Source: an uncultured Candidatus Saccharibacteria bacterium (lineage in GTDB: Bacteria; Patescibacteriota; Minisyncoccia; Phycocordibacterales; UBA918). Taken from it: DNA of 64,000 nucleotides. The stretch covers positions 4,244 through 68,243 of the forward strand of contig CAYGTP010000002.1 in NCBI GenBank assembly GCA_964352875.1, written 5' to 3'. The translations under genes and the position numbers were made by a program. Shown piece by piece: positions 154-17,676 of this stretch; within the stretch, counting starts at the first letter, position 1, and every line of letters starts with the position of its first letter. The notes under the pieces were generated by a model. It searched no databases, had not been told where the DNA came from, and saw only the letters and a list, made by a program, of their open reading frames with translations.

Positions 154-819
154 ATGTCTTCAAATTCACCACTTACCACCATTATTTTTGTCCTTATCGG
201 GATTGGGGTTAGTGCATTTGCTACCTATACTTACCTCCAAAAGGAATTAGATACGAGAACCGCTACCGTATATGATCGAGTCATCGAAGCTGAACAAACA
301 CTTATAACTCTCGCCAACGAAGTGGATCGTGGTGTTCCTAACCAAGCAGTTCGCGGTGTCGTAAGTGATTGCCGCGGGGATAGACGTAATCGCTTCGATA
401 GTTTATTAGGGCAGTTGGATAATTTGGCTGGAGCTGATCTCGTTGAGTTGCAAAATTTATTTAGTCAATGTGGTCATTATTTTTCAACTGAAAAATCTGT
501 TTTGGCACTGCAATTAAATCGTGAAGTACAAGTGTATATTGACACGGTAACCCTATGGGGAGATTTGACCGGTGAAGCACTTGAGCGATATCAGCTGGAT
601 AAATGGCAGTCACTGGCTGCTGCCGAGTCAAAGCAGAGTATGGCCTATACTTCACTGGTCCGACTGCAGGGTCAAATTATTGACGCTCGGGTGTCTGGTT
701 CCGTGCGAGGTTCAGATGAGATCAATGCCTTGCTAGCAGAAGTCAGTGAAGTACAAGACACAATTGCCGTCCAAGGTATTCAAATCAAACAACAACGAGA
801 AGCCTTATTTGATGTATGA
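154..819 (+). CDS. hypothetical membrane-anchored protein (N-terminal TM helix, helical/coiled C-terminal domain)
   Basis: 221-aa ORF with hydrophobic N-terminal segment IIFVLIGIGVSAFATYTYL; ATGA overlap with next gene indicates operon. Confidence 0.5.
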   Translation: MSSNSPLTTIIFVLIGIGVSAFATYTYLQKELDTRTATVYDRVIEAEQTLITLANEVDRGVPNQAVRGVVSDCRGDRRNRFDSLLGQLDNLAGADLVELQNLFSQCGHYFSTEKSVLALQLNREVQVYIDTVTLWGDLTGEALERYQLDKWQSLAAAESKQSMAYTSLVRLQGQIIDARVSGSVRGSDEINALLAEVSEVQDTIAVQGIQIKQQREALFDV

Positions 820-1592
820 GATTTATCCAGTGGCTAGCGTATCAACTCTGTACCACCTGCAAACCAAATCGCAGTCGGACAGTGCGGTATGCCTATCCAT
901 TGATTTTTGCTACGGCTGCGGTCTTAGGAGCTGCGGTAATTACCTCGCAAGACGTGTCTTATGTCCGTATTGAATCGAGCCGCAGTCAAGTGATGGCAGG
1001 GGAACGCTTTGTGGTCAGTGTATATGCTTATGCTAAAGAAGCAGTGAACGCCGTTGATATAGCTCTCGCGTACCCAGATGATCGAATTGAAGTAACTGGG
1101 ATTGATACTGGTGAATCAGTGATTACACTCTGGACTCAAGAACCCTATGTTGCTGATGGCGAAATAATTATGCGAGGCGGGACCTTTCGTCGTGGCTTTA
1201 TCGGCGAACATTTGATTGCTCAAATCAACATGCGCGCTATCAATACTGGAGTAGCAGCATTTTCAACGGCTGGAATTCAATTTTTGAAGGGTGACGGAAG
1301 TGGCGATTTTGCTGAAACTGATATTACAGATGATGGACAACTTAATCTCTATATTGTTGGTGAAGGACAGACAGCAGCTGATTTGGCTGATGTTCCAAGT
1401 GATACGCTCAGGGTTACTGCCGAACTCGTGGTTGTGACCGACGTTGATGGTGATGGGCAAGTCACCTTGGCTGATATAAGTGCCTTTATGGCTGCGTGGG
1501 CAACTGGGGATCGAGTGTTTGACTTTAACGGTGATGGTCGGATGACATTTAGAGATTTCGGTATCATCCTCGCCGACTCATTCTTCAAATGA
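816..1592 (+). CDS. cohesin-like plus dockerin-like domain protein (non-cellulosomal)
   Basis: Central segment VNAVDIALAYPDDRIEVTGIDTGESVITLW resembles the cohesin beta-sandwich. The C-terminus carries two Ca-binding dockerin-like loops, DVDGDGQVTLADISAFMAAW and DFNGDGRMTFRDFGII. Confidence 0.5.
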   Translation: MRFIQWLAYQLCTTCKPNRSRTVRYAYPLIFATAAVLGAAVITSQDVSYVRIESSRSQVMAGERFVVSVYAYAKEAVNAVDIALAYPDDRIEVTGIDTGESVITLWTQEPYVADGEIIMRGGTFRRGFIGEHLIAQINMRAINTGVAAFSTAGIQFLKGDGSGDFAETDITDDGQLNLYIVGEGQTAADLADVPSDTLRVTAELVVVTDVDGDGQVTLADISAFMAAWATGDRVFDFNGDGRMTFRDFGIILADSFFK

Positions 1593-1611
1593 ACAAAGGA
1601 GTGAAACGACT

Positions 1612-1788
1612 ATGTGTGAATTTGGTTCCGTTAGCTGGCTATTCTTAATGCCAGCGAGGAACGGGTCGAATGCTTGTGGTAGTAAAACTGTTACTAGAAA
1701 TAAAGAGCAAAGCGATTATAGAAATAGAGGTGCCAGCGGTGCAGTTTTCGACGAAGTGAACAAAGAAGCGTTCGCACCCCATTTTTAA
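1612..1788 (+). CDS. small ORF (58 aa, Cys-containing) with strong SD (AGGAG 10 nt upstream)
   Basis: ATG at 1612 preceded by AAGGAG at 1596-1601; not in ORF track because shorter than 60 aa; overlaps a CCGTT...AACGG hairpin. Confidence 0.2.
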   Translation: MCEFGSVSWLFLMPARNGSNACGSKTVTRNKEQSDYRNRGASGAVFDEVNKEAFAPHF

Positions 1789-1865
1789 AGAGTGAAGCGA
1801 CTATAAAAATGGAAGTACTCTTGGGGTGACTATGGCGAACTTATGTCGAAAACTGCCGACTGCAG

Positions 1866-1903
1866 AAATAACACAATTAATTTCGAAATTAATTGTGTTA
1901 TTT
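1866..1903. promoter_or_regulatory. 38-bp perfect palindrome AAATAACACAATTAATTTCGAAATTAATTGTGTTATTT (copy 1 of a two-member family)
   Basis: Exact reverse-complement symmetry checked base by base; intergenic, 140 nt upstream of the gene at 2044. Confidence 0.8.
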
Positions 1904-2043
1904 TGCTGTTAATACCACATATCCTACGATTAATCATAGGATTCGTGGTGTTGACAGCCGGCAGTGCCCTTGTTCGGCACCTGCTATTATAGTATTGATG
2001 GGAACGATGTAAGAAATTGTCGTGATTTGGCTGCACCAAAACC

Positions 2044-3912
2044 ATGACGCAAAGCTTTAATACTCCCAAAACCAGCATACAGAGCGTTATGCTCTATCAG
2101 ATTGTCTATCGCAGCCGTTTCGTATGGTACGCAGTTTTCTTATTGATTGTCGTTTTTTTAGTGCAACCAATTGAACAAGCGGTCGCTGCTGAAGTGGGTG
2201 AAGAGGAACCAGCCGAAGAAGCACCTGCTGTTGCAAATGAGCCTGATGTAGTATCCACGCAGGCACCTGAAGCGGTAGAGGAAGAGATAGTAGATGAAAT
2301 AGAGGTAGACGATGAAATAGAAGTCGTTGAGGATGACACTTCTACAGAAACAATTGATACACCAAACCAAAACACTGCTATCACTGATGTAGTGCCTGAA
2401 CCTAATGCAGCTGATTCAGTTGAGGAGTCCGAGTATCCAGCTGACAATAGCGAAGATACACAACCGAAGGCTACCGGTACTGTCGTTACGACTGTAGAAG
2501 GAGATAGTAGTACTGAATCAACGGAGTCTGACAGTGGCGAATCAATTTCTACTGTAGCAATTGATGCAGCTAGCACCAGCGCTACCACAGCCCTGAGTAC
2601 AACAACAACCAATACTGGCGATAGTACTGTGGGTGGTGGTGAAACAGCTAACTCAGAAGTGGAGTCAACGACTGCAACTAGTACTGCAGCAACCACAACT
2701 GTTGAAACTACCTCAGTAACTGATGAGGGTGAAACCCAGAATGTAGATGAGGTGGTAGAAGTTGTCAGCTCTGATGCAACTGACAATGCAACTACTACCG
2801 TACTAAATGAACTTCCAGACATCGAAGACACAATAGCTACTACTACGGTAATACAACCGCCAGTTGTGGTTGACTCATATGTGGGTGAGTTTGAGTTTAA
2901 TGCTAATCAATGTTTTGAAGTCGGAGACGGTACATTTTATTGTAGTAAAGACACAAGTAAGACAGTCGAAACAGTAATCGAAGACGATCTATTTGCCGCA
3001 CCAGACGCTGACGGTGATTTAGAAATCTATCTCACCATCAATGGTGAAACCCAAAAAATCACTGATAATCAGTTAGACGATTCGGCCCCGCAGTTTGATA
3101 GTCAGTCAAATACTATGGTATGGCACCGACTGGTGAACGATCGGTATCAAATTATTCAATACAATTACGCCACGCAAGAAGAAACTCAATTAACTGACGG
3201 TCGTTTTAATAACATGGAACCGAGTGTGTACGGGGATTATATTGCTTGGCAAACCTGGGATGGACAAGATTGGGAGATTGCGCTCTATGACGGGGAGTTA
3301 AAAGAAATGATCACCAACAACAATGTGCCTGATATTGGTCCGATGATCAACGACGGTTACGTCATTTGGAATGCGGTCGGGGCTGCAGGACAAAAACAAG
3401 TCCTACTATATGATTTGGCCACTGAGCAGACCGAAGTGATTGATGATGCTGATGGGGGAGCTGTCAGTAACCCACGGTTCATTTTGGTATACGATGCGGA
3501 GTACGACAATGGCGATGTGGTAACGAGAGGTTACGACCCAGACACTGGCCGAGTTGAGCCACTGTCAGCGATCCCAGGGCAGTTACCAAAAGAACTCCCG
3601 CCCGTTGATCAGACCGGAGAAACTAGGGCCTTGATTGCCAACAAAGGTAGTTCTGGTCGTGAAGATTCTCTTGACTTGGGTGACTTTGACATCGAAACTG
3701 AACCAGAACCAACGGCCAGTACTACTGTTGCGGCCGTGGTTGCTACTTCGACGCAAGTAGTGCAGCCACCGACTGAATTAATTATTGAGAAAATTGATTT
3801 TTCTACTACCACAGAAACGATTGCGAGCAGTACACCAATCGACCCAGCTGAAATAATCGAAGACTTAATTATCCCACCTCTCCAAGGCACAACTTCAGAC
3901 GAAGCGCGGTAG
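2044..3912 (+). CDS. membrane-anchored acidic (D/E/T/S-rich) surface protein with beta-propeller-like repeats
   Basis: N-terminal TM YAVFLLIVVFLVQPI; long E/D/T/S low-complexity tract; then repeats of the TolB/PD40 flavour (YGDYIAWQTWDGQDWEIALYDGE, GYVIWNAVGAAGQKQVLLYDLAT); S/T-rich C-terminus. Confidence 0.6.
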   Translation: MTQSFNTPKTSIQSVMLYQIVYRSRFVWYAVFLLIVVFLVQPIEQAVAAEVGEEEPAEEAPAVANEPDVVSTQAPEAVEEEIVDEIEVDDEIEVVEDDTSTETIDTPNQNTAITDVVPEPNAADSVEESEYPADNSEDTQPKATGTVVTTVEGDSSTESTESDSGESISTVAIDAASTSATTALSTTTTNTGDSTVGGGETANSEVESTTATSTAATTTVETTSVTDEGETQNVDEVVEVVSSDATDNATTTVLNELPDIEDTIATTTVIQPPVVVDSYVGEFEFNANQCFEVGDGTFYCSKDTSKTVETVIEDDLFAAPDADGDLEIYLTINGETQKITDNQLDDSAPQFDSQSNTMVWHRLVNDRYQIIQYNYATQEETQLTDGRFNNMEPSVYGDYIAWQTWDGQDWEIALYDGELKEMITNNNVPDIGPMINDGYVIWNAVGAAGQKQVLLYDLATEQTEVIDDADGGAVSNPRFILVYDAEYDNGDVVTRGYDPDTGRVEPLSAIPGQLPKELPPVDQTGETRALIANKGSSGREDSLDLGDFDIETEPEPTASTTVAAVVATSTQVVQPPTELIIEKIDFSTTTETIASSTPIDPAEIIEDLIIPPLQGTTSDEAR

Positions 3913-3932
3913 AATATACCCACAATTCAAGC

Positions 3933-6900
3933 ATGAGTACATGGTTTAAACATAACCGGCTTTTTAACTGTGGTCAAAAGCTTATCACAGGCTTTTTACT
4001 TTGTTTGCTACTATTTTCAGATGTTGTACCGCTCTTATTGTATGGTCCACTGAGCTATAACAAAATTGAGGCGGCCGAAGCACAAATCGATGACTTGGCT
4101 AGTGGCGCCCAAGCTGAACATATTCAAGCTGGTGCCAATACTGTATTTATAGATGACCAGACGGGGTATAAATTTTATGTTGAATCAAATGGTCGGTGCT
4201 TTTATAAAAAAACTACTAATGGTGGAGCTTCGTGGGGGAGTCAAACACAGTTTGATGATGATCCCAATTGTACGAGTCCGGTAGTGTGGTATGACCGATG
4301 GACGCCAGGTGACACTGGCAATTATATCCATATAACAACGCTAGCGATCGGAACTGGTGCTGAAAATATTAATTATAATCGTTTAGATACCGCAGATAAT
4401 GACGCGTTGTTGATGGGTAGCTCGCCAGTAAATATTTCTTCCACAACTATTACAACATTGAGTTTAGGAGCAGGCAACAAACAGGCGATGACTAAAGGGA
4501 CCGATGGTACGATCTACGCTGCCATTAATGACAACGGCGGGTCCCCGGTAGTTGAGTGTTCAGCTGATTGTCAGCTAGAGGGTAGTTGGAGTGCAACGGG
4601 AGTTTCACCAATGGATCTTTCGAATGACTTTTTATTACTGCAGCCAATGCTGGGGGATAATATCATGTTGATTGTTCGCGATGTGTCTGCTGAGGATATA
4701 GAGTATCAGATTTGGAATAACGCTATTTGGGGTGGAGCTTGGAATACCATTGATGCTAATGCATTTGATAACACTACCTATGACGTTGGTATGTCTGCAG
4801 TTACCCATCCTGAAACCGGTGACATCTATCTTGCCTATGTTACAGACCATCAAACCTTAGGGACCGATGATGATATACGCACAGCAAAATACACAGAAAG
4901 TTCTGGTCTATGGACCAATACGGCAGATGTCGTCACTGACGACAGTAAAGGGCTCCTCAGTGTTGCCTTAGCGCTTGATGCTAATACAAGTGATGTGTAT
5001 GTAGCGTATGCAGCTCGCACCACACCAGGTACCGCTAATAGCGCTAATGTGTATTGGGCAAGCTCGACGGCGGCAATGAGTAGTTGGAGCGGGGAGCAAG
5101 GACCGGTTAATAGTGGGAGCGATAATAACTACGGCCTTTCGTTAAATCATTATTCAGACGAGCGAATCCACGCGTCATGGTACGATGACGCTTCGCGTGA
5201 TGTGTTGAGTGACACTATTGCAGATATCACGCCAGTTACTGTCGTTACAGCAACCGGCACACAACGTGCGACGGTACGGGCCAGTACATCAGCAACTTAC
5301 ATTGGTGGGGCGTTTGTCATTAAAGAGAATGTCACAACGAGAAATGTAACTAGTATTACAATCACTGAGCAAGGTACAATAGACGGAGCAACTGCAATTG
5401 GAAATATTGCGCTCTTCTATGATATTTCGACCACTTCCCCGTACAATTGCAGTGAAGACTCATACCAAGGCAATGAGCCACAATTTGACGTCACTGATAC
5501 GAATGGATTTTCAGGTGCTAATGGAATCGCCAGCTTTTCTGATCTTGTGGCTATTTCACCTACTGACACGCTGTGCGTCTATCCAGTGGTAGAGGTTTTA
5601 AAATCTGCCAATGACGGCGATACTATCGATATTACTATTACGAACCCAGCCACTGACGTGTTGGTTGGTGGAAGTGTGACAGCAGTACCGTCGAGTGTGA
5701 TTTCTATTACTGGCAGTACCACTGTGCGTGATGATGTGCTGACGCAGACCCACTATCATTGGCGACAAGATACGGGTAGTGAAGCGCTCTCACCGTCCGC
5801 AACCGGTGGTATAGAAGATACCCCAATTAGTGCTTTGCAGACCGAAGTACCTCGACGACTCCGCATTGGGCTGTCAAACGATGGTTCGACCACAACGTTT
5901 CCGACTACATTTCGGCTTGAGTATGGCGTAGCGGCACCAACCTGCAATGATGTCGGGACGTGGATTGATGTTGCGGAGGCGGATGATGATTGGAATATGT
6001 TTGATTCTAGTAATCTTACCAACGGAGCTGATACCACAGACGTGGCAGTTGGGCTCGGAGGGGTATCGCCAGAAAATAACTTCTTCCTTACACCCAATGG
6101 TGGCGTCCGCGATACCGAATCTGAGACCGGCAGTATGCAAGTAGATTTTGATGAATACACTGCCCTTGAGTATTCGATTGTCGCTTCAACTACGGCCACG
6201 GAAGGAAATACGTATTGCTTTCGTGTGTCGGATCAGGGTCAACCAATTGAACAGTACGATGTGTTGCCACAAGTGACTATTTCAGCAGATGTGCGGGTTC
6301 GAGCCACTGGTACCCAGGCAGTCTCAGCTGATATCCCAACTGATAATCTCTATATCGGAGGTGCTTTTACCATTACCGAAAATGTTTCCAGTCGTGATGT
6401 TACAAGCGTCACATTGACTGAAGTTGGCACGGTTGACGGTGCTGCTGGTGTGACTGACATTCGATTATATTATGATCTTGATACGACGTTCCCATATAAC
6501 TGTGCGAGCGAATCATTTACTGGAAATGAATTGCAGTATGGAGCAACCTCGACAGCGTTCTCGAGTGCCAACGGATCAACTACGTTTACTGCCACAGTGG
6601 GGATTAGTACTACCAGTACACTCTGTCTCTATCCAGTACTCGATATCACACCAGATGCTACCGATGGGGAGACGGTGGATGTGATTCTCAGTTCTGGTTC
6701 TGGTGATGTTGTAGTGTCTGGCGGGGGGTCGGTAGCACCAACGACACCAATCGACATAACTGGCTCCACGACCCTCAATGGCGCGATTGTGACGCAGACA
6801 CACTACCACTGGCGAAATGATTCAGGGAGTGAAACTGGTGCCAGTTCAGCAACTGGCGGTATCGAAGATACGCCACTGACAGATTTCGATTTAGGAGCTG

Positions 6901-9900
6901 AAATCCGTCTCCGTGTTGGTGTATCAAACGAAGGAGCAACCACGTCGATTCCAAAACGTTACGGCCTGGAATATGGTATTAAGCTCGATGAATGTTCTGA
7001 TGTTACCGTGTGGATTGACGTTGCTGATACAGCTGACGCCTGGGACATGTTTGACTCTTCAAATCTTACTAATGGAGAAACGACCACTGATATTAGTACG
7101 ACCACGGGTGGGGTGAGTGATGAAAACGCTGTCTTCTTAGGCAGTAATGGTGGGGTAGTTGATACGGAATCTTTTACAGCTACTACTACTCTTAGGAATA
7201 ATGAATATACTGATTTTGAATACAGCATCACGTCGACAGCCGACACGCTGTATGACAGTACCTATTGTTTCCGTGTGACGCAAAACGGTGTGAGTCTACT
7301 AGCCTATAACACGTATCCTGAAATCACTATGACTCCCAAACGAGACTTCAGAATCCAACGCGGTCAAGTTGTATTAACTGGCACATCAACCACATTACTA
7401 GCAGGGGTTGATTACGTTGCTCCGAGTGCCTCAACTAGCGCGTTTGTCCGGATTACCAACGCACACCATACCGGGGCTGGTCGTAATGATTTGGGTGGTA
7501 ACCAAAACGCCAGAGACTATAGTTCGTATATTGAAAATCCAGAAAATCTAGAAACTAGCATTACCTTTACTCGTAGCCAAGTTAACCCAATCCAAAATAC
7601 TTTTATTTCTTGGGAGCTAGTTGAGTTTGTGGGTGATCCTGGGACAGATAACGAAATGATTGTGCGCGACCATGGCACCATCAATTACAGTGCGTCAGAA
7701 TTAGTAGCCACTGGTACTGCGCTCGGTACAGTTGATACCGATGGTGACGTAGTGGTATTTATTACCGCCCAATCGCATCCAGGAAATACTAGAGCAGAAG
7801 GATATGCTCATCAGTCAACCAGCGAGTGGAATAGTGCCACCGGTGAACCGGTGTTCAGGCGGAGTGCAACTGGTGGCAATGAAGGATTTGTCAGTTATGC
7901 CGTAGTTGAATTCACTGGTATCAACTGGAAAGTGCAGCGAGTTGAACATGATTACGCAGGCACAACTCCAGGTGAGCCAGATTTGGTTCCGATTACTCCA
8001 GTCAATAGTCTTAATCGAACGTTCTTACATACACAGAAGCGGGTTGATGGGAATGGGTTGATGACGGACTTTGGGCACTTGGTGTGGGTGTCGAGTATGG
8101 GGGCGCTGTCGTTCCAGCTAGAAGCTAGTGCTGCAACCACCACAGTCAATCATGTCTCGGTGGCATGGGTAATTGAAAATACGCAAACCAGTGACGGGGC
8201 GATGACAGTGCAACGTGAAGGGAGTACCTTCACTGGAGGTGCTGACGTGCAGACTCGTGCTATTGGTATCTTGACTGAACTTGAAGCTACCAACAATGCG
8301 TCAATTTTTGCAGTTACCAGTCATAGTCAAACAGTAAATAACATGCCACGAGGTTTGGCGAGCTTTTACATTGCTTCAACTACAGCCTATGAAATTTACC
8401 GTGCTGAATCAGCTGGTATTTTATCGTACTGGACCGAGGTTGTGTCATGGCCAGTAGCAAACATATCGGTGCGACAAAATTATTATAATTTCTACGTCGA
8501 AGATGGTCAGCTTGATCCACAAGACCAGTGGCCAGTAGGGCCAAGCAGTGTTGGGGAAAACGCTCCTATCACTGCTTTAGATGAACCTCTCGGAGAAGGT
8601 GAGCGCATTCGTATTAGAATGAGTACTCGGATTGGTAACGCTAACTTACCAGCGGGATTGTTGTCAGTTAAGCTCCAATATGGTGTACGAACAGCAACTT
8701 GCTCGGCAGTGGGCGACTGGTTCGACGTCGGTCAATTTGCCAGCAGTACGATATGGCGCGGGTATGACGTCGCAGCATTAACTGATGGCGTGGCACTTTC
8801 AACCGAACCCCCCGGAATCGGAGATTTGAATCTTTCAGTGTCTGACGTGTCTGGTAGTTACATTGAAGCGAATCCTTCGGTAGCTAACCCGTTTGATGTG
8901 CAAGATGGAGAAGACGTGGAGTTTGATTGGGTAATCGAGCATAATGGAGCAAATAGTAGTACATTTTATTGTTTCCGCATGGTAAATAGCGACGGTACAC
9001 CACTGGATGGCTACTTTAATTACCCAGAATTACGTACCGCTGGATTTACGCCCGTTGGCGGTGATTGGCGTTGGTACGATGATGCTGAAAATATCACACC
9101 AAGTTTAGCGTTGGCAGCAGAGAATGTAGCTCCAACTGATATCGCAAATTCCAATACTATCGTGTTGCGTACGGTCGTTGACGAGCTAAAAGTCGTCCAA
9201 GGCAATAACGTTAAATTTAAGCTGCAATTTTCGCAATCACCAAACTTCTTAACCGCAAGTGATGTAGTTGCGAGTAGTACGTGCCAGGCTGATTCATTGT
9301 GGTGTTATGCCGACGGAGGTGCGAATGATAATACTGTCTTGGCCAGTTCCACGTTAGGTCAGGCGGACAGTTGTTTTGGTGGTGTGGGTAATGGCTGCGG
9401 TAGCTACAATGAATCTGGGACATTAGTTGCAGGCTTGACCCATGCTGCAGGCGCAGCAGCTGAATACGCCTTTGTTTTGCAGCACGCTGGTGCACGCGCG
9501 AATGGGGTATATTATTTCCGTCTGTATGACGTAACAAATGACGCTCCATTAATTGCATCCAGTACCTACCCATCGCTAGTGACCGAAGGAGCGCAACTGG
9601 TATTTGGGGTGGCCGGGTTGCCAAGCGCAACAACTACTGAAGGTGTTGTTACTGATGTAGCAAGTACCCCTGATGCTATTAATTTTGGCACCTTAGGACT
9701 TAATATGGCAATCGAAGCAGCTCATCGACTTTCAGTTGATACTAATGCCACCGAAGGGTATCAGGTATTTGTCTTTGCTACCCAAGACCTGATCAATAGT
9801 TACGGTACCGCTATTGATCCCATCATCAGCACCAACGAAGTGCCAGCGGGCTGGTCCAGCGCCTGTCCCGTTGAGGCTACTGGTTGCTTTGGCTACCATG

Positions 9901-10109
9901 CTGGCGACGATATCTTATCGGGGGCATCCACTCGATTCTCAGCCAATGACAGTTTTGCCGCCTTAACTACGGTGCCGGCCGAAGTACTGTATAACCCCAC
10001 TCCAATTGATGAGTACCATGATGTACTATACAAGATTGAAGTACGTGAAGGACTACCAGCCGGTGACTATGAAACTGACATCGTCTATCTCGCCGTTCCA
10101 GTATTTTAA
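3933..10109 (+). CDS. giant secreted repeat protein (2058 aa) with a possible N-terminal BNR/Asp-box-like region and four copies of a Cys/Trp-marked module
   Basis: Signal/anchor LLCLLLFSDVVPLLLYG; Asp-box-like TTNGGASWG; internal 350-aa tandem repeat plus two further degenerate C-terminal sub-module copies sharing R.R.........Y.GV....C.....W.DV ..... YCFR....G..L..Y..YPE. Confidence 0.7.
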   Translation: MSTWFKHNRLFNCGQKLITGFLLCLLLFSDVVPLLLYGPLSYNKIEAAEAQIDDLASGAQAEHIQAGANTVFIDDQTGYKFYVESNGRCFYKKTTNGGASWGSQTQFDDDPNCTSPVVWYDRWTPGDTGNYIHITTLAIGTGAENINYNRLDTADNDALLMGSSPVNISSTTITTLSLGAGNKQAMTKGTDGTIYAAINDNGGSPVVECSADCQLEGSWSATGVSPMDLSNDFLLLQPMLGDNIMLIVRDVSAEDIEYQIWNNAIWGGAWNTIDANAFDNTTYDVGMSAVTHPETGDIYLAYVTDHQTLGTDDDIRTAKYTESSGLWTNTADVVTDDSKGLLSVALALDANTSDVYVAYAARTTPGTANSANVYWASSTAAMSSWSGEQGPVNSGSDNNYGLSLNHYSDERIHASWYDDASRDVLSDTIADITPVTVVTATGTQRATVRASTSATYIGGAFVIKENVTTRNVTSITITEQGTIDGATAIGNIALFYDISTTSPYNCSEDSYQGNEPQFDVTDTNGFSGANGIASFSDLVAISPTDTLCVYPVVEVLKSANDGDTIDITITNPATDVLVGGSVTAVPSSVISITGSTTVRDDVLTQTHYHWRQDTGSEALSPSATGGIEDTPISALQTEVPRRLRIGLSNDGSTTTFPTTFRLEYGVAAPTCNDVGTWIDVAEADDDWNMFDSSNLTNGADTTDVAVGLGGVSPENNFFLTPNGGVRDTESETGSMQVDFDEYTALEYSIVASTTATEGNTYCFRVSDQGQPIEQYDVLPQVTISADVRVRATGTQAVSADIPTDNLYIGGAFTITENVSSRDVTSVTLTEVGTVDGAAGVTDIRLYYDLDTTFPYNCASESFTGNELQYGATSTAFSSANGSTTFTATVGISTTSTLCLYPVLDITPDATDGETVDVILSSGSGDVVVSGGGSVAPTTPIDITGSTTLNGAIVTQTHYHWRNDSGSETGASSATGGIEDTPLTDFDLGAEIRLRVGVSNEGATTSIPKRYGLEYGIKLDECSDVTVWIDVADTADAWDMFDSSNLTNGETTTDISTTTGGVSDENAVFLGSNGGVVDTESFTATTTLRNNEYTDFEYSITSTADTLYDSTYCFRVTQNGVSLLAYNTYPEITMTPKRDFRIQRGQVVLTGTSTTLLAGVDYVAPSASTSAFVRITNAHHTGAGRNDLGGNQNARDYSSYIENPENLETSITFTRSQVNPIQNTFISWELVEFVGDPGTDNEMIVRDHGTINYSASELVATGTALGTVDTDGDVVVFITAQSHPGNTRAEGYAHQSTSEWNSATGEPVFRRSATGGNEGFVSYAVVEFTGINWKVQRVEHDYAGTTPGEPDLVPITPVNSLNRTFLHTQKRVDGNGLMTDFGHLVWVSSMGALSFQLEASAATTTVNHVSVAWVIENTQTSDGAMTVQREGSTFTGGADVQTRAIGILTELEATNNASIFAVTSHSQTVNNMPRGLASFYIASTTAYEIYRAESAGILSYWTEVVSWPVANISVRQNYYNFYVEDGQLDPQDQWPVGPSSVGENAPITALDEPLGEGERIRIRMSTRIGNANLPAGLLSVKLQYGVRTATCSAVGDWFDVGQFASSTIWRGYDVAALTDGVALSTEPPGIGDLNLSVSDVSGSYIEANPSVANPFDVQDGEDVEFDWVIEHNGANSSTFYCFRMVNSDGTPLDGYFNYPELRTAGFTPVGGDWRWYDDAENITPSLALAAENVAPTDIANSNTIVLRTVVDELKVVQGNNVKFKLQFSQSPNFLTASDVVASSTCQADSLWCYADGGANDNTVLASSTLGQADSCFGGVGNGCGSYNESGTLVAGLTHAAGAAAEYAFVLQHAGARANGVYYFRLYDVTNDAPLIASSTYPSLVTEGAQLVFGVAGLPSATTTEGVVTDVASTPDAINFGTLGLNMAIEAAHRLSVDTNATEGYQVFVFATQDLINSYGTAIDPIISTNEVPAGWSSACPVEATGCFGYHAGDDILSGASTRFSANDSFAALTTVPAEVLYNPTPIDEYHDVLYKIEVREGLPAGDYETDIVYLAVPVF
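5235..6287 (+). repeat. intragenic repeat unit 1 (about 351 aa) of giant protein
   Basis: VTVVTATGTQRATVRAS...YCFRVSDQGQPIEQYDVLPQVTISA aligns colinearly with unit 2 at roughly 50% identity (TQTHYHWR, ATGGIEDTP, WIDVA, MFDSSNLTNG conserved). Confidence 0.8.
6288..7330 (+). repeat. intragenic repeat unit 2 (about 348 aa) of giant protein
   Basis: DVRVRATGTQAVSAD...YCFRVTQNGVSLLAYNTYPEITMT; tandem with unit 1. Confidence 0.8.
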
Positions 10110-10124
10110 GCTACTATACACACT

Positions 10125-11132
10125 ATGCGTTTATTTCTCATTACATTACTCATCCTTGCAAGCATCACGCCAGGGGTGATTAGTGCGTACTCAGTGAGCC
10201 CGCTACTCATTGATCGCGAGACGGAAGGTCGCGATATTATTAAGCAAACTATCACGCTGTCAAATCCGTCTAATAGCCCAGCTAGAATTTATGCCTCAGT
10301 CCATGAAGTGGCACTTGATGAAGGAGGCACTATTAAAGAATTTATTCCGCCTTCAGAGGTAGACAATAAAACTGCTATTACCAGTTGGATAGAAATTACT
10401 CGTGGTCGGATAGTTCTCGAGCCAGGTGAAGTGAGGGAAATCCCCGTGACTATCCGCATGAATCCTAATGCAGCACCAGGGCAGTATCACGGGTTGATTG
10501 GGTTTGGAACTGGTTCTAACCGCACAGATGCGGAAGCTCGGGTACTAGCCGGCACAGCACCAGCGACTATTGTCAGGCTGTCGCTTAACGAAAAGCGAAC
10601 AGAATTTCTCAGGCTTAAAAATTTTATTATTAATAGATTTGTCACAGATGATACTGACGGTGCTATCTCGTACGAAATTGAAAACCCAGGTGAATCCCCA
10701 GTCACGCCAACTGGCGAAATAATTTTTTATGACAATCGTGGCAACGAAGTCGGTGCTACCGCAGTAAATCCTGAAGGGGTAGTCGTGGAGGCAGGGAAGT
10801 CTGCCGCCTTTACTAGCTCGGTTCCAGATAATCAGTCGCTCGGTCGTTACAAAGCTTTTTTGTCAGTTGAGTACGGTAAAAAACAACTCGCTTCAGTGCA
10901 TGACACAGCTTTCTTTTATATGATTCCATTTAAACAGCTTATAATGCTATTTGGACTATTTCTGCTGCTCGCTGTATTGTTAACGTGGTGGCTCCACCGC
11001 CGGATGTACCGCGCTCATGGAATAGCACATCCTGATCACGAAGTAGTGCCAATGTACATTCGGAGCGGTTCAGATGCCCCTAAATTTGATCATGATATCG
11101 ACCTTAAGAAAAAACCTGAAGAAAACAACTAG
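10125..11132 (+). CDS. DUF916/DUF3324-like (CscA-type) cell-surface protein with C-terminal TM anchor and basic tail
   Basis: Signal peptide; post-signal YSVSPLLIDRETEGRDIIKQTITLSNPSN pattern recalled from Gram-positive DUF916 proteins; C-terminal TM LIMLFGLFLLLAVLLTWWLHRRMYR. Confidence 0.5.
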   Translation: MRLFLITLLILASITPGVISAYSVSPLLIDRETEGRDIIKQTITLSNPSNSPARIYASVHEVALDEGGTIKEFIPPSEVDNKTAITSWIEITRGRIVLEPGEVREIPVTIRMNPNAAPGQYHGLIGFGTGSNRTDAEARVLAGTAPATIVRLSLNEKRTEFLRLKNFIINRFVTDDTDGAISYEIENPGESPVTPTGEIIFYDNRGNEVGATAVNPEGVVVEAGKSAAFTSSVPDNQSLGRYKAFLSVEYGKKQLASVHDTAFFYMIPFKQLIMLFGLFLLLAVLLTWWLHRRMYRAHGIAHPDHEVVPMYIRSGSDAPKFDHDIDLKKKPEENN

Positions 11133-12738
11133 TACTCTCTTGCTTGGAGGTCTATTGTTTGTCCTGTTACCGAGCCAAACTGTTCTAGCGCAGGAAACGT
11201 TGACACTCAGCGTGACACCGACGCTATTTGAGATGTCAGCTGAACCAGGGCAAGTATGGAATAGTAGCATTAAGGTAGCTAACCCAAATCAGTATAAGTT
11301 AACGGTCTATCCTTCGGTAGTAAATTTTGCGCCGCAGGGTGAGCGGGGAATGGGTAAATTTTTACCAGTATTTGACACTGGAACATCAGGCGCCACCCTC
11401 GCTGAGTGGATTACCGTTTCGCCCGACCCTGTAGTGATAGAGCGTGAAAAAAGTGCAGTCATTCCTATTTCAGTAGTTGTTCCACCCGACGCTGCGCCAG
11501 GAGGACATTTTGCCGCTATTTTAGTTGGTACCAAACCGCCAGAGGCAACTGGTGAATTAGCTGTTCGAACCAGCCAGATGGTCACGTCGTTATTTTTTGT
11601 ACGAATTGCCGGAGATGTGATAGAGGAGGGTACAATTCGTAGCTTTAGAGCAGCTAATTCTTTTGTGGATGCCCCGCAAGCCGATTTTGAGTTACGTTTT
11701 GAAAATAAAGGTAATGTACATCTGCAGCCCCAAGGAACAATTATTATTACCAATATGTGGGGCGAAGAGCGCGGACGGATTCCGATTAATCACGATACGC
11801 ACTTTGGTAACGTACTGCCAGATAGTGTTCGTAATTTTGAATTTAGTTGGTCAAGTGCTGCGGGTTTTTCTGAAATTGGCCGATACAAAGCAGTCGCAAC
11901 GTTGGCTTATGGTCGCGATGCCCGGAATTTTCAAACGAGAGAGATTGCGTTTTGGGTAGTTCCCGTTAAAGAAGTGTTGCTCACCATTGCACTATTGGTT
12001 GCTATTGCTTGGTTTGTGAGCTGGGTAGTAAAAGCGTATATTCGTCGCATGTTGATTCTCTCTGGTATCAACCCGGATGACGCTAAGCGCCGCGCTCGGG
12101 TACAGCGAGATGTGGCTGGGGCGCACACGGTTGAACTTCGCAACTATCGCACTATCAGTGCGCCGGTTCGCTCGGGTTGGTTAGACTTACGTCAGCAGTT
12201 GGAAACAGTTAAAGCAGTGAGTGGTTATATGCGAGTGCTCGGACAGTTTGCTTGGCAGTATCGATTATTCTTCATAGGAATAATTGGATTTATGGTAATT
12301 GGAGTGATTGCCTGGTGGTATGCGATTGGGGCCACTGCTTCACGTGATTATCAGGTTACTATTGGCACAGAAGAAACGGCTGTTACATTGACCGCAGAAG
12401 AAATTTACTATAACCAACTCAGGCAAGTAGAGCGCAGTCCATTGGTAGTTACGCAATCCACTTCTACTCCAATTTCAGTCGTGAATGTCAGTGGTGAAAA
12501 CGGTACCGCGGCCCAAGTGCGGTTAATACTAGAAAAAGCTGGATACGTTGTAACGGACATGGGTAGCGATAGTGAGCGAAATGATCGACGTACTGTGGTG
12601 GTCTATAGTGTCGATGTTCAACAGCAGGCAGCTGCTATTAGTCGCGAACTGGATGGGGCTTTGCTCTCAGCTAGTACCGGCAGTAGTACCAACGAAATCA
12701 TTATTTATGCTGGCCAAGACAGCATTGTGTCCGAATAG
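11074..12738 (+). CDS. DUF916-like extracellular domain fused via TM segments to a C-terminal LytR_C-like domain
   Basis: Signal peptide; LTLSVTPTLFEMSAEPGQVWNSSIKVANPN (same pattern as upstream gene); TM LLTIALLVAIAWFVSWVV and LFFIGIIGFMVIGVIAWWYAIG; C-terminal ISVVNVSGENGTAAQVRLILEKAGYVV...TVVVYSVDVQQQAAAISREL matches the LytR_C consensus; overlaps the upstream gene in a different frame. Confidence 0.55.
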   Translation: MPLNLIMISTLRKNLKKTTSTLLLGGLLFVLLPSQTVLAQETLTLSVTPTLFEMSAEPGQVWNSSIKVANPNQYKLTVYPSVVNFAPQGERGMGKFLPVFDTGTSGATLAEWITVSPDPVVIEREKSAVIPISVVVPPDAAPGGHFAAILVGTKPPEATGELAVRTSQMVTSLFFVRIAGDVIEEGTIRSFRAANSFVDAPQADFELRFENKGNVHLQPQGTIIITNMWGEERGRIPINHDTHFGNVLPDSVRNFEFSWSSAAGFSEIGRYKAVATLAYGRDARNFQTREIAFWVVPVKEVLLTIALLVAIAWFVSWVVKAYIRRMLILSGINPDDAKRRARVQRDVAGAHTVELRNYRTISAPVRSGWLDLRQQLETVKAVSGYMRVLGQFAWQYRLFFIGIIGFMVIGVIAWWYAIGATASRDYQVTIGTEETAVTLTAEEIYYNQLRQVERSPLVVTQSTSTPISVVNVSGENGTAAQVRLILEKAGYVVTDMGSDSERNDRRTVVVYSVDVQQQAAAISRELDGALLSASTGSSTNEIIIYAGQDSIVSE

Positions 12739-12753: not shown

Positions 12754-13242
12754 ATGAGTAAAAGAGGAATCATTCTATCAATAGTACTATTTTTATTACT
12801 AGTGGTTGGTATGTTTAGCTACACTTTCCTTAAAAGTACCGAACTTGAACAGATGAATGATGTGTCAAATGATACGGTAGTTACTGATGATGCTAATCAA
12901 CGAGGGTATATGCCTGACGATATCACTGCCAAACATTTCTTTATCGACGGTGTGCATACCCTGGTTGGAGACATTCCACTTTCTACTCCGTGCGATTTGT
13001 TAGAATGGAATGCCTTTGTGGCTGAATCGTATCCAGAACAAGTACGGATTGATTACTCTACCTTAAATACATCTGAAGATTGTATCCAAGTAATTACGTC
13101 ACAACGATTTAAAGTCACTTTTACTGCTAGTGCAGACGCTGATATATCAGCTCGGTTTAATACAAACAATATTCCACTTAACCTGATTCCGGCGGCACCA
13201 GGAGAAACACCTGATAATTTTGATGTGTTTATTAAAGGGTAG
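12754..13242 (+). CDS. hypothetical membrane-anchored protein
   Basis: 162-aa ORF, N-terminal TM ILSIVLFLLLVVGMFSYTFL. Confidence 0.45.
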   Translation: MSKRGIILSIVLFLLLVVGMFSYTFLKSTELEQMNDVSNDTVVTDDANQRGYMPDDITAKHFFIDGVHTLVGDIPLSTPCDLLEWNAFVAESYPEQVRIDYSTLNTSEDCIQVITSQRFKVTFTASADADISARFNTNNIPLNLIPAAPGETPDNFDVFIKG

Positions 13243-14404: not shown

Positions 14405-15073
14405 ATGAATACCATCAAAGAATTAGCCACACCATTTGCCATTGTAATTGGGTTCGGTATGGTCGCTGCTGCTCTCTATGTTACTGGTGGTGCAACTGGG
14501 GCATCGGCAAAACAAAGCGATCAAGCTCTGGCACCACAGACCGGTCAATCAGTCGAACGAATCGCTGAGGCTAGAATATACGGAGACATTAATGCGCCGG
14601 TGACGATTGTTGAATTCTCAGATGTTGAATGTCCGTTTTGTGGTCGCCTGCATCCCACGCTAAAGCGCTTGGTTGATGAATCTGCCGGAGAAATTAATTG
14701 GGAGTACCGACATTTACCACTACCGAGTCATCGTAACGCAGTGGCGGGAGCTGTGGCTAGTGAATGTGTTGCAACACTCGCGGGGGATAAATCATTTTGG
14801 GATTATCTAGATATTCTTTTTGCCAATCAAGGTGGTCACTCACAAGCATTTTATACTGATGCAGCCGTCAGTTTAGGAATCGAAGCGGAGGACTTCAATG
14901 TCTGTATGTCGAGCGAAGCCCCACTTGCCTTAGTGCAGCAAGATGCTGAGACCGCCCAAGCACTCGGAGGGCAGGGGACGCCCTTCAGTGTCATCGTGTT
15001 TGCCGATGGATCGACTCGCCCCGTGTCGGGCGCGTTGCCGTATGAGCAATGGAAAAGCTTGTTGACCCTATAA
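14405..15073 (+). CDS. DsbA-like thioredoxin-fold thiol:disulfide oxidoreductase (CPFC active site)
   Basis: N-terminal TM anchor, VEFSDVECPFCGRLHP motif. Confidence 0.7.
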   Translation: MNTIKELATPFAIVIGFGMVAAALYVTGGATGASAKQSDQALAPQTGQSVERIAEARIYGDINAPVTIVEFSDVECPFCGRLHPTLKRLVDESAGEINWEYRHLPLPSHRNAVAGAVASECVATLAGDKSFWDYLDILFANQGGHSQAFYTDAAVSLGIEAEDFNVCMSSEAPLALVQQDAETAQALGGQGTPFSVIVFADGSTRPVSGALPYEQWKSLLTL

Positions 15074-15078
15074 ACAAT

Positions 15079-15639
15079 ATGGATCGCAGTAGCCTTATTA
15101 CGTTGGGAGTTATCACAACAGTCATACTAGTGGTTGGATTGTATGTATGGTATGCAGTCAATCAATCACACATTGCCAACCAGATACCCAGTGATGCTGT
15201 TGTTGCCTTGACTACGACTGACGATACGTACACAGATTTGGATGGTAATCCGGTCAGTTTAGAGCAATATCTCGGAGCCCCTCTCGTTGTTAATTCGTGG
15301 GCCAGTTGGTGTCCGTTTTGTGTCACTGAATTGCCGGACTTAAATACCCTCGCTGAAGAATTTGCTGACCAAAATGTTACCGTTCTGGCAATCAACCGAA
15401 AAGAAAGTAAGGTCCAAGCCCAACGGTATCTGAGTACTGTGCCTGACTTAAATAATCTAGTGATTGTACTTGATACCAAAGATACCTTTTACAAATCTAT
15501 TGGTGGTTTTACTATGCCAGAGACTATTTTTTATGACGCAGCTGGTAACGTGATAGTGCATAAACGTGGCTTCATGAAATTGCCAGAAATGCGACAGCAC
15601 CTTGACTCAGCAATTACTGCAACAAATGACGATCAATAG
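15079..15639 (+). CDS. TlpA/ResA-like thiol-disulfide oxidoreductase (WCPFC)
   Basis: TM anchor then redoxin fold with SWASWCPFC; ORF track starts at 15049 but ATG at 15079 avoids overlap with the previous gene. Confidence 0.7.
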   Translation: MDRSSLITLGVITTVILVVGLYVWYAVNQSHIANQIPSDAVVALTTTDDTYTDLDGNPVSLEQYLGAPLVVNSWASWCPFCVTELPDLNTLAEEFADQNVTVLAINRKESKVQAQRYLSTVPDLNNLVIVLDTKDTFYKSIGGFTMPETIFYDAAGNVIVHKRGFMKLPEMRQHLDSAITATNDDQ

Positions 15640-15651
15640 CGTATCACTAGT

Positions 15652-17659: not shown

Positions 17660-17676
17660 TAATTTTAAAAACTGGT

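What the first reader, a model, noticed from the sequence alone, without database searches (positions are those of the whole stretch)
2044..12738. Four-gene cell-surface locus: giant modular secreted protein flanked by an acidic beta-propeller protein and two DUF916-like anchored proteins (one fused to LytR_C)
Gene content and order:
- An acidic, TM-anchored protein with propeller-like repeats (2044-3912).
- A 2058-aa secreted protein (3933-10109).
- Two consecutive proteins (10125-11132 and 11074-12738) whose post-signal regions share the same pattern: [YL]S[VT]SP.L....E.G......I.L.NPSN then a C-terminal TM with a basic tail.
- The last two genes overlap.

Comparison:
- The paired pattern matches what I recall of DUF916/DUF3324 (CscA-type) proteins. 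Those are the membrane anchors of WxL surface complexes in Firmicutes.
- The second DUF916-like protein additionally carries two TMs and a C-terminal LytR_C-like domain. I do not know that fusion.
- The giant protein has no recognisable WxL tail, LPXTG motif or known adhesin repeats. It is built instead from four copies of an unrecognised module marked by conserved Cys, Trp and a YCFR motif.

The tight spacing suggests an operon. Together this looks like a non-covalent surface-anchoring complex analogous to Csc/WxL, but with novel components. It is the best candidate for an undescribed system in the window.
Basis: partly seen in the sequence, partly recalled or inferred. Interest (0 to 1): 0.78.

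Follow-up and report, generated by a model that had tools for sequence, protein, structure and literature searches.

The report
Giant adhesin on a CPR Pam-type anchor
This is a conserved cell-surface gene cluster of an ultrasmall (Patescibacteria/CPR) bacterium in which a 2,058-residue secreted protein ends in the pilin-type domain of the recently described CPR "Pam" pilus and is followed by two membrane-anchored chaperone-like proteins that prove to be distant relatives of the WxL-interacting proteins of Gram-positive bacteria, linking two surface-display systems that were thought separate.

Summary
In detail: all four ORFs, the pC/pD paralogy, the gene overlap, the LytR_C fusion and the four-fold module are at the stated coordinates.

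- **The giant pB** does have a recognisable tail. Its last ~145 residues match NCBIfam NF058581 (CPR Pam pilin C-terminal domain) in 32/32 orthologues, though below the curated cut-off. The modelled fold resembles donor-strand-complemented pilins (TLP-1b, CsuA/B, TasA, FimG).
- **This C-terminal domain** ends about 1,800 protein clusters of 250–5,845 aa.
- **In three further, differently organised clusters** it lies beside pC/pD-like genes.

The locus is therefore best read as a variant of the Pam pilus system (2026 preprint). In this reading a giant adhesin replaces ordinary pilins and is held by membrane-anchored PapD-like chaperone/anchor proteins. It is not a canonical WxL system, because the WxL tests were not significant.

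New here:
- the giant passenger;
- the LytR_C fusion;
- occurrence in the Kaiserbacteria/Nomurabacteria lineage;
- the Pam–WxLIP homology.

The conserved block is at least seven genes, not four.

The parts
154..819 (+). p1: 221-aa membrane-anchored acidic protein. It is the conserved first gene of the block. Function unknown.
   Evidence: Same position in 25+ related loci. One N-terminal TM. No Pfam or NCBIfam family.
816..1592 (+). p2: 258-aa anchored protein with a dockerin/EF-hand-like C-terminus (aa 205-253). Its N-terminal part looks cohesin-like by eye only.
   Evidence: EF-hand_1 6.5e-6 and Dockerin_1 1.6e-4. dockerin_GC 1.3e-4. Conserved in order. Relatives carry a Cohesin+Big_13 gene just upstream of p1.
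2044..3912 (+). pA: 622 aa. It has an N-terminal anchor, a poorly conserved acidic low-complexity stalk (aa ~50-290), a conserved TolB-like beta-propeller (aa ~290-520) and a C-terminal tail.
   Evidence: pI 4.05 and TM 26-44. TIGR04275 1.6e-10, TolB 6e-5. Family consensus. In L011, L030 and L044 it is replaced by a second large CTD-bearing protein.
3933..10109 (+). pB: 2058-aa secreted giant, the passenger/adhesin, with a Pam-type C-terminal pilin domain.
   Evidence: 120 orthologues, all annotated as hypothetical. No Pfam family except weak BNR_2 in 3 of 22. No PDB sequence relative.
4074..5243 (+). pB aa 48-437: N-terminal region, possibly a BNR/sialidase-like propeller.
   Evidence: BNR_2 best 8e-5 in 3 of 22 orthologues. 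An Asp-box-like NGGASWG is visible in the sequence. This assignment is weak.
5244..7373 (+). pB aa 438-1147: tandem duplication of an A+B module pair (A1 438-600, B1 601-797, A2 789-950, B2 951-1147).
   Evidence: About 50% identity between the copies. hhalign A1/A2 1.5e-71 and B1/B2 3e-78.
7374..8462 (+). pB aa 1148-1510: conserved middle region of unknown fold.
   Evidence: Many invariant columns. No relation to the other segments.
8463..9587 (+). pB aa 1511-1885: B3 and B4 copies of the Cys/Trp/Y[CY]FR module.
   Evidence: hhalign B1/B3 3.9e-19, B1/B4 3.6e-10, B3/B4 6e-11. The B module also occurs in an unrelated 5226-aa CTD giant (L085, 1e-28).
9588..10106 (+). pB aa 1886-2058: a conserved linker strand (LxFxVxGL), then the Pam-pilin-type C-terminal truncated-Ig domain (model match aa ~1914-2058).
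10125..11132 (+). pC: 335 aa. It has a signal peptide, two Ig-like domains (aa 23-154, 163-266), a TM helix (269-297) and a conserved cytoplasmic tail. It is WxLIP-like and PamC/D/R-like, a membrane-anchored chaperone or anchor.
11074..12738 (+). pD: 554 aa, a paralogue of pC. It has an ectodomain (aa 40-300), TM1 (301-319), a cytoplasmic loop, TM2 (398-416) and an extracellular LytR_C domain (aa 465-549, nt 12466-12720).
   Evidence: hhalign against WxLIP: Prob 95.5, E 1.4e-8. LytR_C 1e-8, above cut-off. Topology. LytR_C is absent from the orthologue in 14 of the 44 loci that carry pD.
12754..13242 (+). pE: 162-aa membrane-anchored protein with two conserved Cys. It is the conserved last gene of the block. 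Function unknown.
   Evidence: Present in 41 loci. No family hit. Not found in the other CTD/chaperone clusters.
14405..16416 (+). Downstream thiol-disulfide genes: DsbA-like (14405-15073), TlpA/redoxin-like (15049-15639) and CcdA/DsbD_TM (15652-16416). They may support disulfide formation in Cys-rich pB.
   Evidence: Pfam. A TlpA-like gene lies within 6 kb downstream in 37 of 37 loci, DsbA in 13 and CcdA in 12. The functional link is an inference.

Best explanation
The locus is a variant of the CPR "Pam" donor-strand surface system. In it, a giant multidomain adhesin takes the place of ordinary pilins.

**Proposed mechanism**
1. pB is exported by Sec.
2. Its roughly 1,885-residue passenger carries a possible BNR-like propeller, two A modules, four B modules and a middle region. 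The passenger projects from the cell and is stabilised by disulfides.
3. Its C-terminal truncated-Ig pilin domain is an incomplete fold that needs a beta-strand from a partner.
4. pC and pD are two-Ig-domain, PapD/WxLIP-like proteins held in the cytoplasmic membrane by a C-terminal helix. They bind that domain by strand complementation.
5. One of them probably acts as chaperone. The other, or both, acts as the permanent membrane tether, the role proposed for PamR.
6. In pD the extra extracellular LytR_C domain would couple the complex to the cell wall.

**Shown**
- Homology of the pB tail to Pam pilin C-terminal domains.
- Its pilin-like fold.
- Homology of pC/pD to WxLIP and their chaperone-like fold.
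- Repeated co-localisation of the two families.

**Inferred**
- The physical interaction.
- Which protein donates the strand.
- Whether pB is displayed singly or polymerises.
- What the passenger binds. A host cell is presumed, given the episymbiotic lifestyle known for cultivated CPR bacteria.
For: **pB tail**
- It matches NF058581 CPR_Pam_pilin_C over the whole model in 32/32 orthologues, best 2.4e-12.
- The AF2 model has pLDDT 89.
- A conserved strand sits directly before the domain, where Pam pilins carry their donor linker (preprint).

**pC and pD**
- Architecture is SP, two beta-sandwich domains and a C-terminal TM helix. This is the architecture described for PamC/PamD/PamR.
- hhalign against validated WxLIP sequences gives Prob 95%, E about 1e-8.

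**Genomic association**
- The C-terminal domain family has 1821 representatives. In nearly all of the 150 listed the match runs to the last residue, in proteins of 250-5845 aa.
- In three other, differently organised clusters (L079/L084, L080, L085), proteins with this domain lie beside pC/pD homologues (E 1e-53 to 1e-80).
- One of those homologues is hit directly by a Firmicute WxLIP HMM (4.9e-9) and by PF06030.
- The p1-pE gene order is kept in 44 species-level genomes at 40-52% pC identity.
- All seven products have an export signal or anchor.
Against: - The NF058581 scores (25.8 bits for the window protein) are below NCBI's curated cut-off of 55. Full-length pB gave no hit at E 0.1.
- I could not compare pC/pD with the actual PamC/PamD/PamR sequences of Ca. 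Mycosynbacter amalyticus.
- No NCBIfam Pam model hit pC or pD themselves, the pC family, or two pC/pD-like proteins of L084.
- No co-fold could be run, so the pB-pC/pD contact is untested.
- The window has no PamT-like or small pilin gene.
- pB's passenger bears no resemblance to the nine-strand NTD of PamA/B.
- Synteny extends to unrelated housekeeping neighbours (AI-2E, PGA_cap in 34-35 of 37 loci). Gene order alone is therefore weak evidence of function.
- TM-scores to solved pilins are low, 0.35-0.5.
Confidence: 0.65

Rival explanations
1. A true pilus built of giant subunits. pB polymerises head to tail: each subunit gives its linker strand (aa ~1887-1895) to the C-terminal domain of the next, as PamA/B do. 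pC and pD act only as transient membrane-anchored chaperones, with one perhaps serving as terminator.
For: - pB has the pilin order passenger / linker strand / CTD, rather than the linker-less PamT layout.
- AF2 packs the linker strand confidently into the domain, pLDDT about 95. This is as expected if strand and groove are complementary.
- pB is the only CTD protein in the locus, so a homopolymer is the only filament possible.
Against: - A 1,885-residue passenger on each subunit would be sterically demanding.
- In solved Pam filaments the NTD forms the inter-subunit interface, and pB lacks that NTD.
- The strand could equally self-complement in cis.
- No experimental filament is known for this lineage.
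Confidence: 0.2
2. A Csc/WxL-type complex in the strict sense. The pB tail is a cryptic WxL domain that binds peptidoglycan non-covalently. pC and pD are WxLIPs that stabilise it on the wall. No pilin-like strand exchange is involved.
For: - pC/pD are homologous to WxLIP.
- The best-scoring hhalign alignment of the tail with large-WxL domains is colinear over 116-139 columns, and the FG, [WY]x[LV] and G.Y...[WY]x[LA]..P motifs line up.
- The tail is strictly C-terminal, as WxL domains are.
- LytR_C on pD suggests contact with the wall.
Against: - No PF13731 hit.
- hhalign P 0.02-0.07, Prob 1-2%, is only slightly better than unrelated controls (P 0.18-0.6). The small-versus-large WxL control gives 1e-14.
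- Both Trp are replaced.
- There is no small WxL gene.
- The NQIDKxxxYFDLK motif is deleted.
- No solved WxL structure exists to compare.
Confidence: 0.12
3. The genes are neighbours only through lineage-wide synteny. pB is an independent secreted or S-layer-like protein, and pC/pD serve another function.
For: Unrelated neighbours are equally syntenic: AI-2E, PGA_cap, FKBP, TGT. Promoter and terminator scans are uninformative.
Against: The CTD and chaperone-like families recur together in three independent clusters with different gene orders and different passengers. Gaps of 15-20 nt and an overlap join pA through pE.
Confidence: 0.05

Closest known systems
Pam pilus system of CPR bacteria (Ca. 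Mycosynbacter amalyticus PamA/B/E/T pilins, PamC/PamD chaperones, PamR anchor; Troman et al., bioRxiv 10.64898/2026.03.03.709456; NCBIfam NF058579, NF058581)
   Same: - The C-terminal truncated-Ig pilin domain is homologous at sub-threshold level in 32/32 orthologues.
- A linker strand lies directly upstream of it.
- The partner proteins are two-domain PapD-like proteins carrying a C-terminal TM helix.
- There is no usher.
- The proteins are Sec-exported and contain disulfides.
- The system is restricted to CPR.
   Different: - The 'pilin' is a 2,058-aa multidomain giant, not a 39-55 kDa two-domain pilin.
- The window has no PamT/PamA/PamB/PamE-like small pilins.
- One chaperone-like protein carries two extra TM segments and a LytR_C domain.
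- The extra conserved genes p1, p2, pA and pE were absent from the two other CTD/chaperone clusters searched with their profiles (L084, L085); the M. amalyticus pam operon itself could not be checked.
- The lineage is Kaiserbacteria/Nomurabacteria-type, whereas the preprint reports mainly Saccharimonadia and Microgenomatia.
- Direct homology of pC/pD to PamC/D/R was not tested.
WxL/Csc clusters of Firmicutes (small WxL, large WxL, WxLIP = DUF916+DUF3324+TM; Siezen 2006 PMC1534035; Hassan & Williamson PMC9772566, PMC10599100)
   Same: - pC/pD are remote homologues of WxLIP across both Ig domains, with the same size and the same SP/2xIg/TM layout.
- A large surface protein carries a roughly 170-aa strictly C-terminal beta domain.
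- In WxL systems a DUF916 hairpin is predicted to insert into WxL, which is a strand-complementation idea.
   Different: - There is no PF13731 WxL domain and there are no Trp-x-Leu motifs.
- The NQIDKxxxYFDLK motif is missing.
- There is no small WxL protein and no LPXTG protein.
- PF06030 is below the gathering score in the window protein, and PF11797 is not detected.
- The phylum differs.
Two-domain tip adhesins of chaperone-usher pili (FimH, PapG) with their periplasmic chaperones (FimC, PapD)
   Same: The layout is a receptor-binding passenger followed by a C-terminal incomplete-Ig pilin domain. That domain is complemented by a chaperone or neighbouring strand. The pB tail matches the PapG/FimG/FimF pilin domains, and pC matches FimC, CfaA, EcpB and CsuC.
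   Different: - There is no outer membrane and no usher.
- The chaperone-like proteins are membrane-anchored.
- The passenger is about ten times larger.
- The similarity is at fold level only, 6-14% identity.
TLP-1a/b pond-water fibrils (CryoSeek, PDB 9IKJ/9IKK, PMC11494351) and TasA fibres
   Different: TLP-1 is a small homopolymeric protomer of unknown organism. It has no detectable sequence relation to pB.

Membership tests
Pam pilus system (CPR) | Pilin C-terminal domain recognised by NF058581 CPR_Pam_pilin_C | tested here: inconclusive
   Window tail: E 9.1e-6, 25.8 bits, model 4-148/148. All 32 orthologues hit, best 2.4e-12. All scores are below the curated cut-off of 55 bits. This supports homology but not curated membership.
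Pam pilus system (CPR) | CTD is a truncated Ig-like fold like chaperone-usher pilin domains | tested here: met
Pam pilus system (CPR) | Single linker (donor) beta-strand between NTD and CTD | tested here: inconclusive
   A conserved strand l.f...G lies just before the CTD. Donation was not tested.
Pam pilus system (CPR) | Nine-strand beta-sandwich NTD, pilin of about 39-55 kDa | tested here: not met
   pB has a 1,885-aa multidomain passenger.
Pam pilus system (CPR) | FimC/PapD-like two-domain chaperones with a C-terminal TM helix (PamC/PamD) | tested here: met
   Met by architecture and fold for pC and pD.
Pam pilus system (CPR) | RbmA-like terminator/anchor PamR and tip pilin PamT in the operon | tested here: inconclusive
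Pam pilus system (CPR) | Forms extracellular filaments | not testable with these tools
   Needs cryo-EM or cryo-ET.
WxLIP (DUF916 PF06030 + DUF3324 PF11797 + TM) | PF06030 and PF11797 at gathering threshold | tested here: not met
   pC PF06030 scores 19.4 bits against 27.3. Fifteen of 25 orthologues hit at E<=0.01 (best 1.3e-6); their bit scores against the gathering score were not listed. PF11797 was never detected. pD has no hit.
WxLIP (DUF916 PF06030 + DUF3324 PF11797 + TM) | Homology to bona fide WxLIP by profile and by structure; SP / 2xIg / TM layout; 320-380 aa | tested here: met
WxLIP (DUF916 PF06030 + DUF3324 PF11797 + TM) | Conserved NQIDKxxxYFDLK strand | tested here: not met
   An 11-residue deletion sits at this position in the hhalign alignment.
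WxL cluster (Hassan et al. definition: at least 1 WxLIP plus at least 2 WxL proteins) | WxL domain PF13731 with two Trp-x-Leu motifs in a small and a large protein | tested here: not met
   No PF13731 hit. hhalign P 0.02-0.07 against 1e-14 for the control. The motifs read YxV and YxA. No small WxL-like gene is present.
WxL cluster (Hassan et al. definition: at least 1 WxLIP plus at least 2 WxL proteins) | WxL fold | not testable with these tools
   No WxL structure is in the PDB. AlphaFold DB libraries were unavailable.
LytR_C (PF13399) | HMM above gathering score | tested here: met
   pD aa 465-549: 36.4 bits against 22.2. The domain is predicted to be extracellular. It is absent in 14 of the 44 orthologous loci that carry pD.
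Classical chaperone-usher pilus | Outer-membrane usher | tested here: not met
   No usher family was found in any locus protein.

The most novel reading that the evidence does not exclude
Pam pili of CPR bacteria and the WxL/Csc clusters of Firmicutes are two branches of one ancient monoderm system. WxLIP and PamC/D would then be the same membrane-anchored, PapD-like chaperone/anchor. The WxL domain and the Pam pilin C-terminal domain would be diverged versions of one strand-accepting Ig domain. That domain would serve as a general C-terminal 'plug' that lets cells display passengers of any size, up to 5,800 aa. The window's locus would be the minimal form: one giant adhesin plugged into two anchors, one of them wall-coupled through LytR_C.
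Probability: 0.35. Interest if true: 0.8.

Novelty: new variant of a known kind. Interest (0 to 1): 0.6.

Why it matters
CPR/Patescibacteria may account for a large share of bacterial diversity, and those cultivated so far live attached to host cells. How most of them attach is unknown.

- **A new reach for the Pam machinery.** It was seen experimentally only as thin pili in one Saccharimonadia species. This locus suggests it is also used to mount giant multidomain adhesins, and that it reaches the Kaiserbacteria/Nomurabacteria lineage.
- **A widespread domain.** The strand-accepting C-terminal domain marks about 1,800 protein clusters, none covered by Pfam. It could therefore flag the surface adhesin repertoire of CPR genomes.
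- **A testable mechanism for WxL display.** The chaperone-like partners are homologous to WxLIP. This points to donor-strand complementation by a membrane-anchored chaperone as the basis of the long-unclear non-covalent WxL display system of enterococci, listeriae and lactobacilli.

Tried and rejected
- It worked after the orthologues were obtained through a protein search.
- **Short-query search.** A 173-aa query returned only five gene fragments.
- **AlphaFold DB fold libraries** were unavailable, so the WxL fold comparison was impossible.
- **PDB sequence searches.** Searches with pB, pC, pD and profiles A1, A2 and A4 gave nothing useful.
- **WxL homology of the pB tail.** It was tested against validated small and large WxL alignments fetched from metagenomes. 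The result was not significant even with a more diverse profile. I rejected it as a membership claim and kept it as a possibility.
- **A second WxL/CTD-like protein.** I searched p1, p2, pA and pE and found none.
- **A missed hit.** The full-length pB scan of NCBIfam missed the Pam hit that the isolated tail gave. Long multidomain proteins should be scanned domain by domain.
- **Promoter, terminator, Rfam and tRNA scans** of the locus were uninformative.
- **The small HTH gene** that relatives carry between p2 and pA is absent here.
- **Literature.** Searches linking DUF916/WxLIP with CPR found nothing. The Pam preprint does not mention WxL, DUF916 or LytR.

Full report
**1. Observation**

The four ORFs are at exactly the stated coordinates on the + strand.
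- pA (2044-3912) has pI 4.05 and one N-terminal anchor. It carries beta-propeller repeat hits: TIGR04275 1.6e-10 and TolB 6e-5.
- pB (3933-10109) is 2,058 aa with an N-terminal hydrophobic signal or anchor.
- pC (10125-11132) and pD (11074-12738) are paralogues. BLASTP gives 1e-20 at 24% identity over 291 aa, and profile against profile gives 4e-61. They overlap by 59 nt.
- pD has two further TM segments. Its LytR_C domain scores above Pfam's gathering threshold (36.4 against 22.2 bits).
- The repeated module exists in four copies: aa 601-797, 951-1147, 1511-1703 and 1704-1885, with hhalign Prob 95.6-100%. A second module is duplicated at 438-600 and 789-950.

**2. Organism and conservation**

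Homologues of pC and pB occur only in Patescibacteria-type metagenome bins labelled Kaiserbacteria, Nomurabacteria or Paceibacterota. All are annotated as hypothetical.

In 44 species-representative genomes the order p1-p2-pA-pB-pC-pD-pE is kept wherever the contig is long enough, at 40-52% pC identity. The conserved block is therefore at least seven genes.
- A TlpA-like redoxin follows in 37 of 37 loci, DsbA in 13 and CcdA in 12.
- pB has 16 invariant cysteines.
- All seven products carry an export signal or anchor.

One caveat applies. Clearly unrelated neighbours (AI-2E transporter, PGA_cap) are just as syntenic. Synteny alone therefore does not prove a functional unit.

**3. pC and pD**

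Pfam gives only a sub-threshold PF06030 (DUF916/WxLIP_PGBD) hit for pC, at 19.4 bits. Fifteen of 25 orthologues hit it, best 1.3e-6.

To test this properly I fetched 29 genuine WxL clusters from metagenomes using the DUF916 motif NQIDKxxxYFDLK. I validated representatives by Pfam: WxL 2e-72, WxLIP_PGBD 1e-40 and WxLIP_HBD 1e-46. I then ran profile-profile comparisons.
- The pC family against real WxLIP gives Prob 95.1%, E 3.4e-8, over 230 columns spanning both Ig domains.
- pD gives Prob 95.5%, E 1.4e-8.
- Unrelated controls give Prob 0.1-5%.

pC and pD are therefore remote WxLIP homologues with a PapD-like chaperone fold. They lack the hallmark NQIDK...YFDLK strand and PF11797.

**4. The tail of pB**

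pB has no Pfam family and no PDB sequence relative. Its last ~170 residues are highly conserved.

An AlphaFold2 model (pLDDT 89) matches donor-strand-complemented pilins by two methods.
- Foldseek: CsuA/B 7e-4, TasA 9.7e-4, FimF/G and the PapG pilin domain.

A profile search of 1.84 billion representative proteins found this domain in 1,821 of them (908 at E<=1e-10). In nearly all of the 150 listed the match runs to the last residue, in proteins of 250 to 5,845 aa. Ten small members have no Pfam family.

NCBIfam then identified it. The isolated tail matches NF058581, "Pam pilus system pilin subunit" (CPR_Pam_pilin_C), over the whole model at 9.1e-6. All 32 orthologues match, best 2.4e-12, though all fall below the curated cut-off of 55 bits. 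Small standalone members also touch NF058579, PamT. The full-length protein had not given this hit.

**5. The Pam system**

The source is a 2026 preprint (bioRxiv 10.64898/2026.03.03.709456). It solved PamA/PamB pili of the CPR bacterium Ca. Mycosynbacter amalyticus and describes the following.
- PamC and PamD are FimC/PapD-like chaperones that, unusually, keep a C-terminal TM helix.
- PamR is an RbmA-like membrane anchor.
- PamT is a tip pilin.
- There is no usher.

This is the architecture of pB-tail plus pC/pD. The preprint reports the system mainly in Saccharimonadia and Microgenomatia. It does not mention WxL, DUF916, LytR or adhesins.

**6. Independent association of the two families**

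I looked up other proteins that carry the tail domain. In each cluster, proteins with the tail domain lie beside pC/pD homologues.
- L079/L084: two small tail-domain proteins alternate with three pC/pD homologues (E 1e-55 to 1e-63). One homologue is hit directly by my Firmicute WxLIP HMM (4.9e-9) and by PF06030. Giants of 2,258 and more than 4,207 aa flank the cluster.
- L080 (a Parcubacteria-group genome): one clear (2.5e-63) and two weaker (about 1e-6 to 1e-7) small tail-domain proteins, one pD homologue (2e-55) and a 2,749-aa giant.
- L085: a 5,226-aa tail-bearing giant that also contains the B module (1e-28), two small tail-domain proteins and two pC/pD homologues.
- L011, L030 and L044 (relatives of the window locus): a second large tail-bearing protein replaces pA.

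The pairing of tail domain with membrane-anchored chaperone-like protein is therefore recurrent and independent of gene order. This is the strongest evidence that pB, pC and pD work together.

**7. Is the tail a WxL domain?**

I could not show it.
- There is no PF13731 hit.
- hhalign against small WxL gives Prob 0.5-1%.
- hhalign against large WxL gives P 0.02-0.07. The alignment is colinear over 116-139 columns, and the FG, [WY]x[LV] and G.Y...[WY]x[LA]..P motifs coincide.
- The small-versus-large WxL control gives 1e-14, and unrelated controls give P 0.18-0.6.
- No WxL structure exists in the PDB, and AlphaFold DB libraries were not available.

Membership is not met. A very remote relationship remains possible.

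**8. Mechanism**

The most likely mechanism (confidence about 0.65) is as follows. pB is exported. Its C-terminal incomplete Ig domain is completed by a strand from pC and/or pD. Those proteins sit in the membrane through their TM helices and so tether the giant passenger to the cell. LytR_C on pD, present in 30 of 44 lineages, adds contact with the wall.

The homologies, the folds and the genomic association are shown. The contact itself, the identity of the strand donor, single display versus polymerisation, and the ligand of the passenger are inferred.

The main rival is that pB polymerises through its own conserved linker strand.

**9. Verdict**

The locus is a new variant of a known, very recently described kind. 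New here are:
- the giant passenger with Pfam-dark A, B and middle modules;
- the LytR_C-fused chaperone/anchor;
- occurrence in the Kaiserbacteria/Nomurabacteria lineage;
- the accessory genes p1, p2, pA and pE;
- the demonstrated homology between the chaperone-like proteins of this Pam-type locus and Firmicute WxLIP.

I found that last link in no paper in the library searched.

Noticed in passing
window 1593-2043: This is a 452-nt gap with no ORF between p2 and pA. Relatives carry a small (128-133 aa) HTH_17-like membrane protein gene here (L001 1394-1795; L004 2306-2692). tblastn finds no trace of it in the window.
   Followed up: partly
window 816-1592; L003 1-438; L004 1-715: p2 ends in a dockerin/EF-hand-like segment. 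Relatives encode a 581-aa Cohesin+Big_13 protein immediately upstream of p1. A cohesin-dockerin pair may therefore belong to the same surface assembly. That upstream gene lies beyond the window's start.
   Followed up: partly
window 11011-11129 (pC aa 296-335): The cytoplasmic tail of pC ends in a strongly conserved motif, V.MY.R.G.S....HDIDLKKK, with D324 and L327 invariant in 25 orthologues. This hints at a cytoplasmic partner for a protein otherwise thought to act outside the cell.
   Followed up: no
window 12466-12720; loci L017-L034, L045: The LytR_C domain of pD is missing in 14 of the 44 orthologous loci that carry pD, although both extra TM segments are kept. Several of these loci have the longer (~2,450 aa) pB variant.
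   Followed up: partly
L085 8001-23681; L084 284-7060 and 14178-21113: The Cys/Trp/YCFR 'B' module of pB also occurs in an unrelated 5,226-aa protein that ends in the same tail domain (1e-28). Other clusters of tail-domain and chaperone-like genes are flanked by giants of 2,185 to more than 4,207 aa. The preprint's conserved 'tail fibre-like protein' may be one of these.
   Followed up: partly
pB aa 1869-2058 versus PDB 9IKK: The best structural match of the pB tail is TLP-1b, an unidentified donor-strand fibril imaged directly from pond water (CryoSeek, modelled on UniProt A0A2M8AA21). Such environmental fibrils might be Pam-like pili of CPR bacteria. No sequence similarity was detectable.
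   Followed up: no
window 12754-13242: pE is a small anchored protein with two conserved Cys (PTPCDLL ... C) and no known family. It is present in 41 related loci but absent from the other clusters that hold tail-domain and chaperone-like genes.
   Followed up: partly
window 54877-59537 (- strand): An AcrB-type RND transporter (6e-180) sits next to a HlyD-like membrane-fusion protein. This pairing is normally associated with a double membrane, yet the lineage is generally regarded as having a single one.
   Followed up: no
window 27963-30710: A further 915-aa protein carries a Big_13 Ig-like domain (1.4e-13). It is another candidate surface protein. It has no Pam-type tail.
   Followed up: partly
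window 17675-17713: An 18-bp perfect hairpin lies just after the glutamate dehydrogenase gene. It is the first strong terminator-like structure downstream of the co-directional gene run that starts at pA.
   Followed up: no
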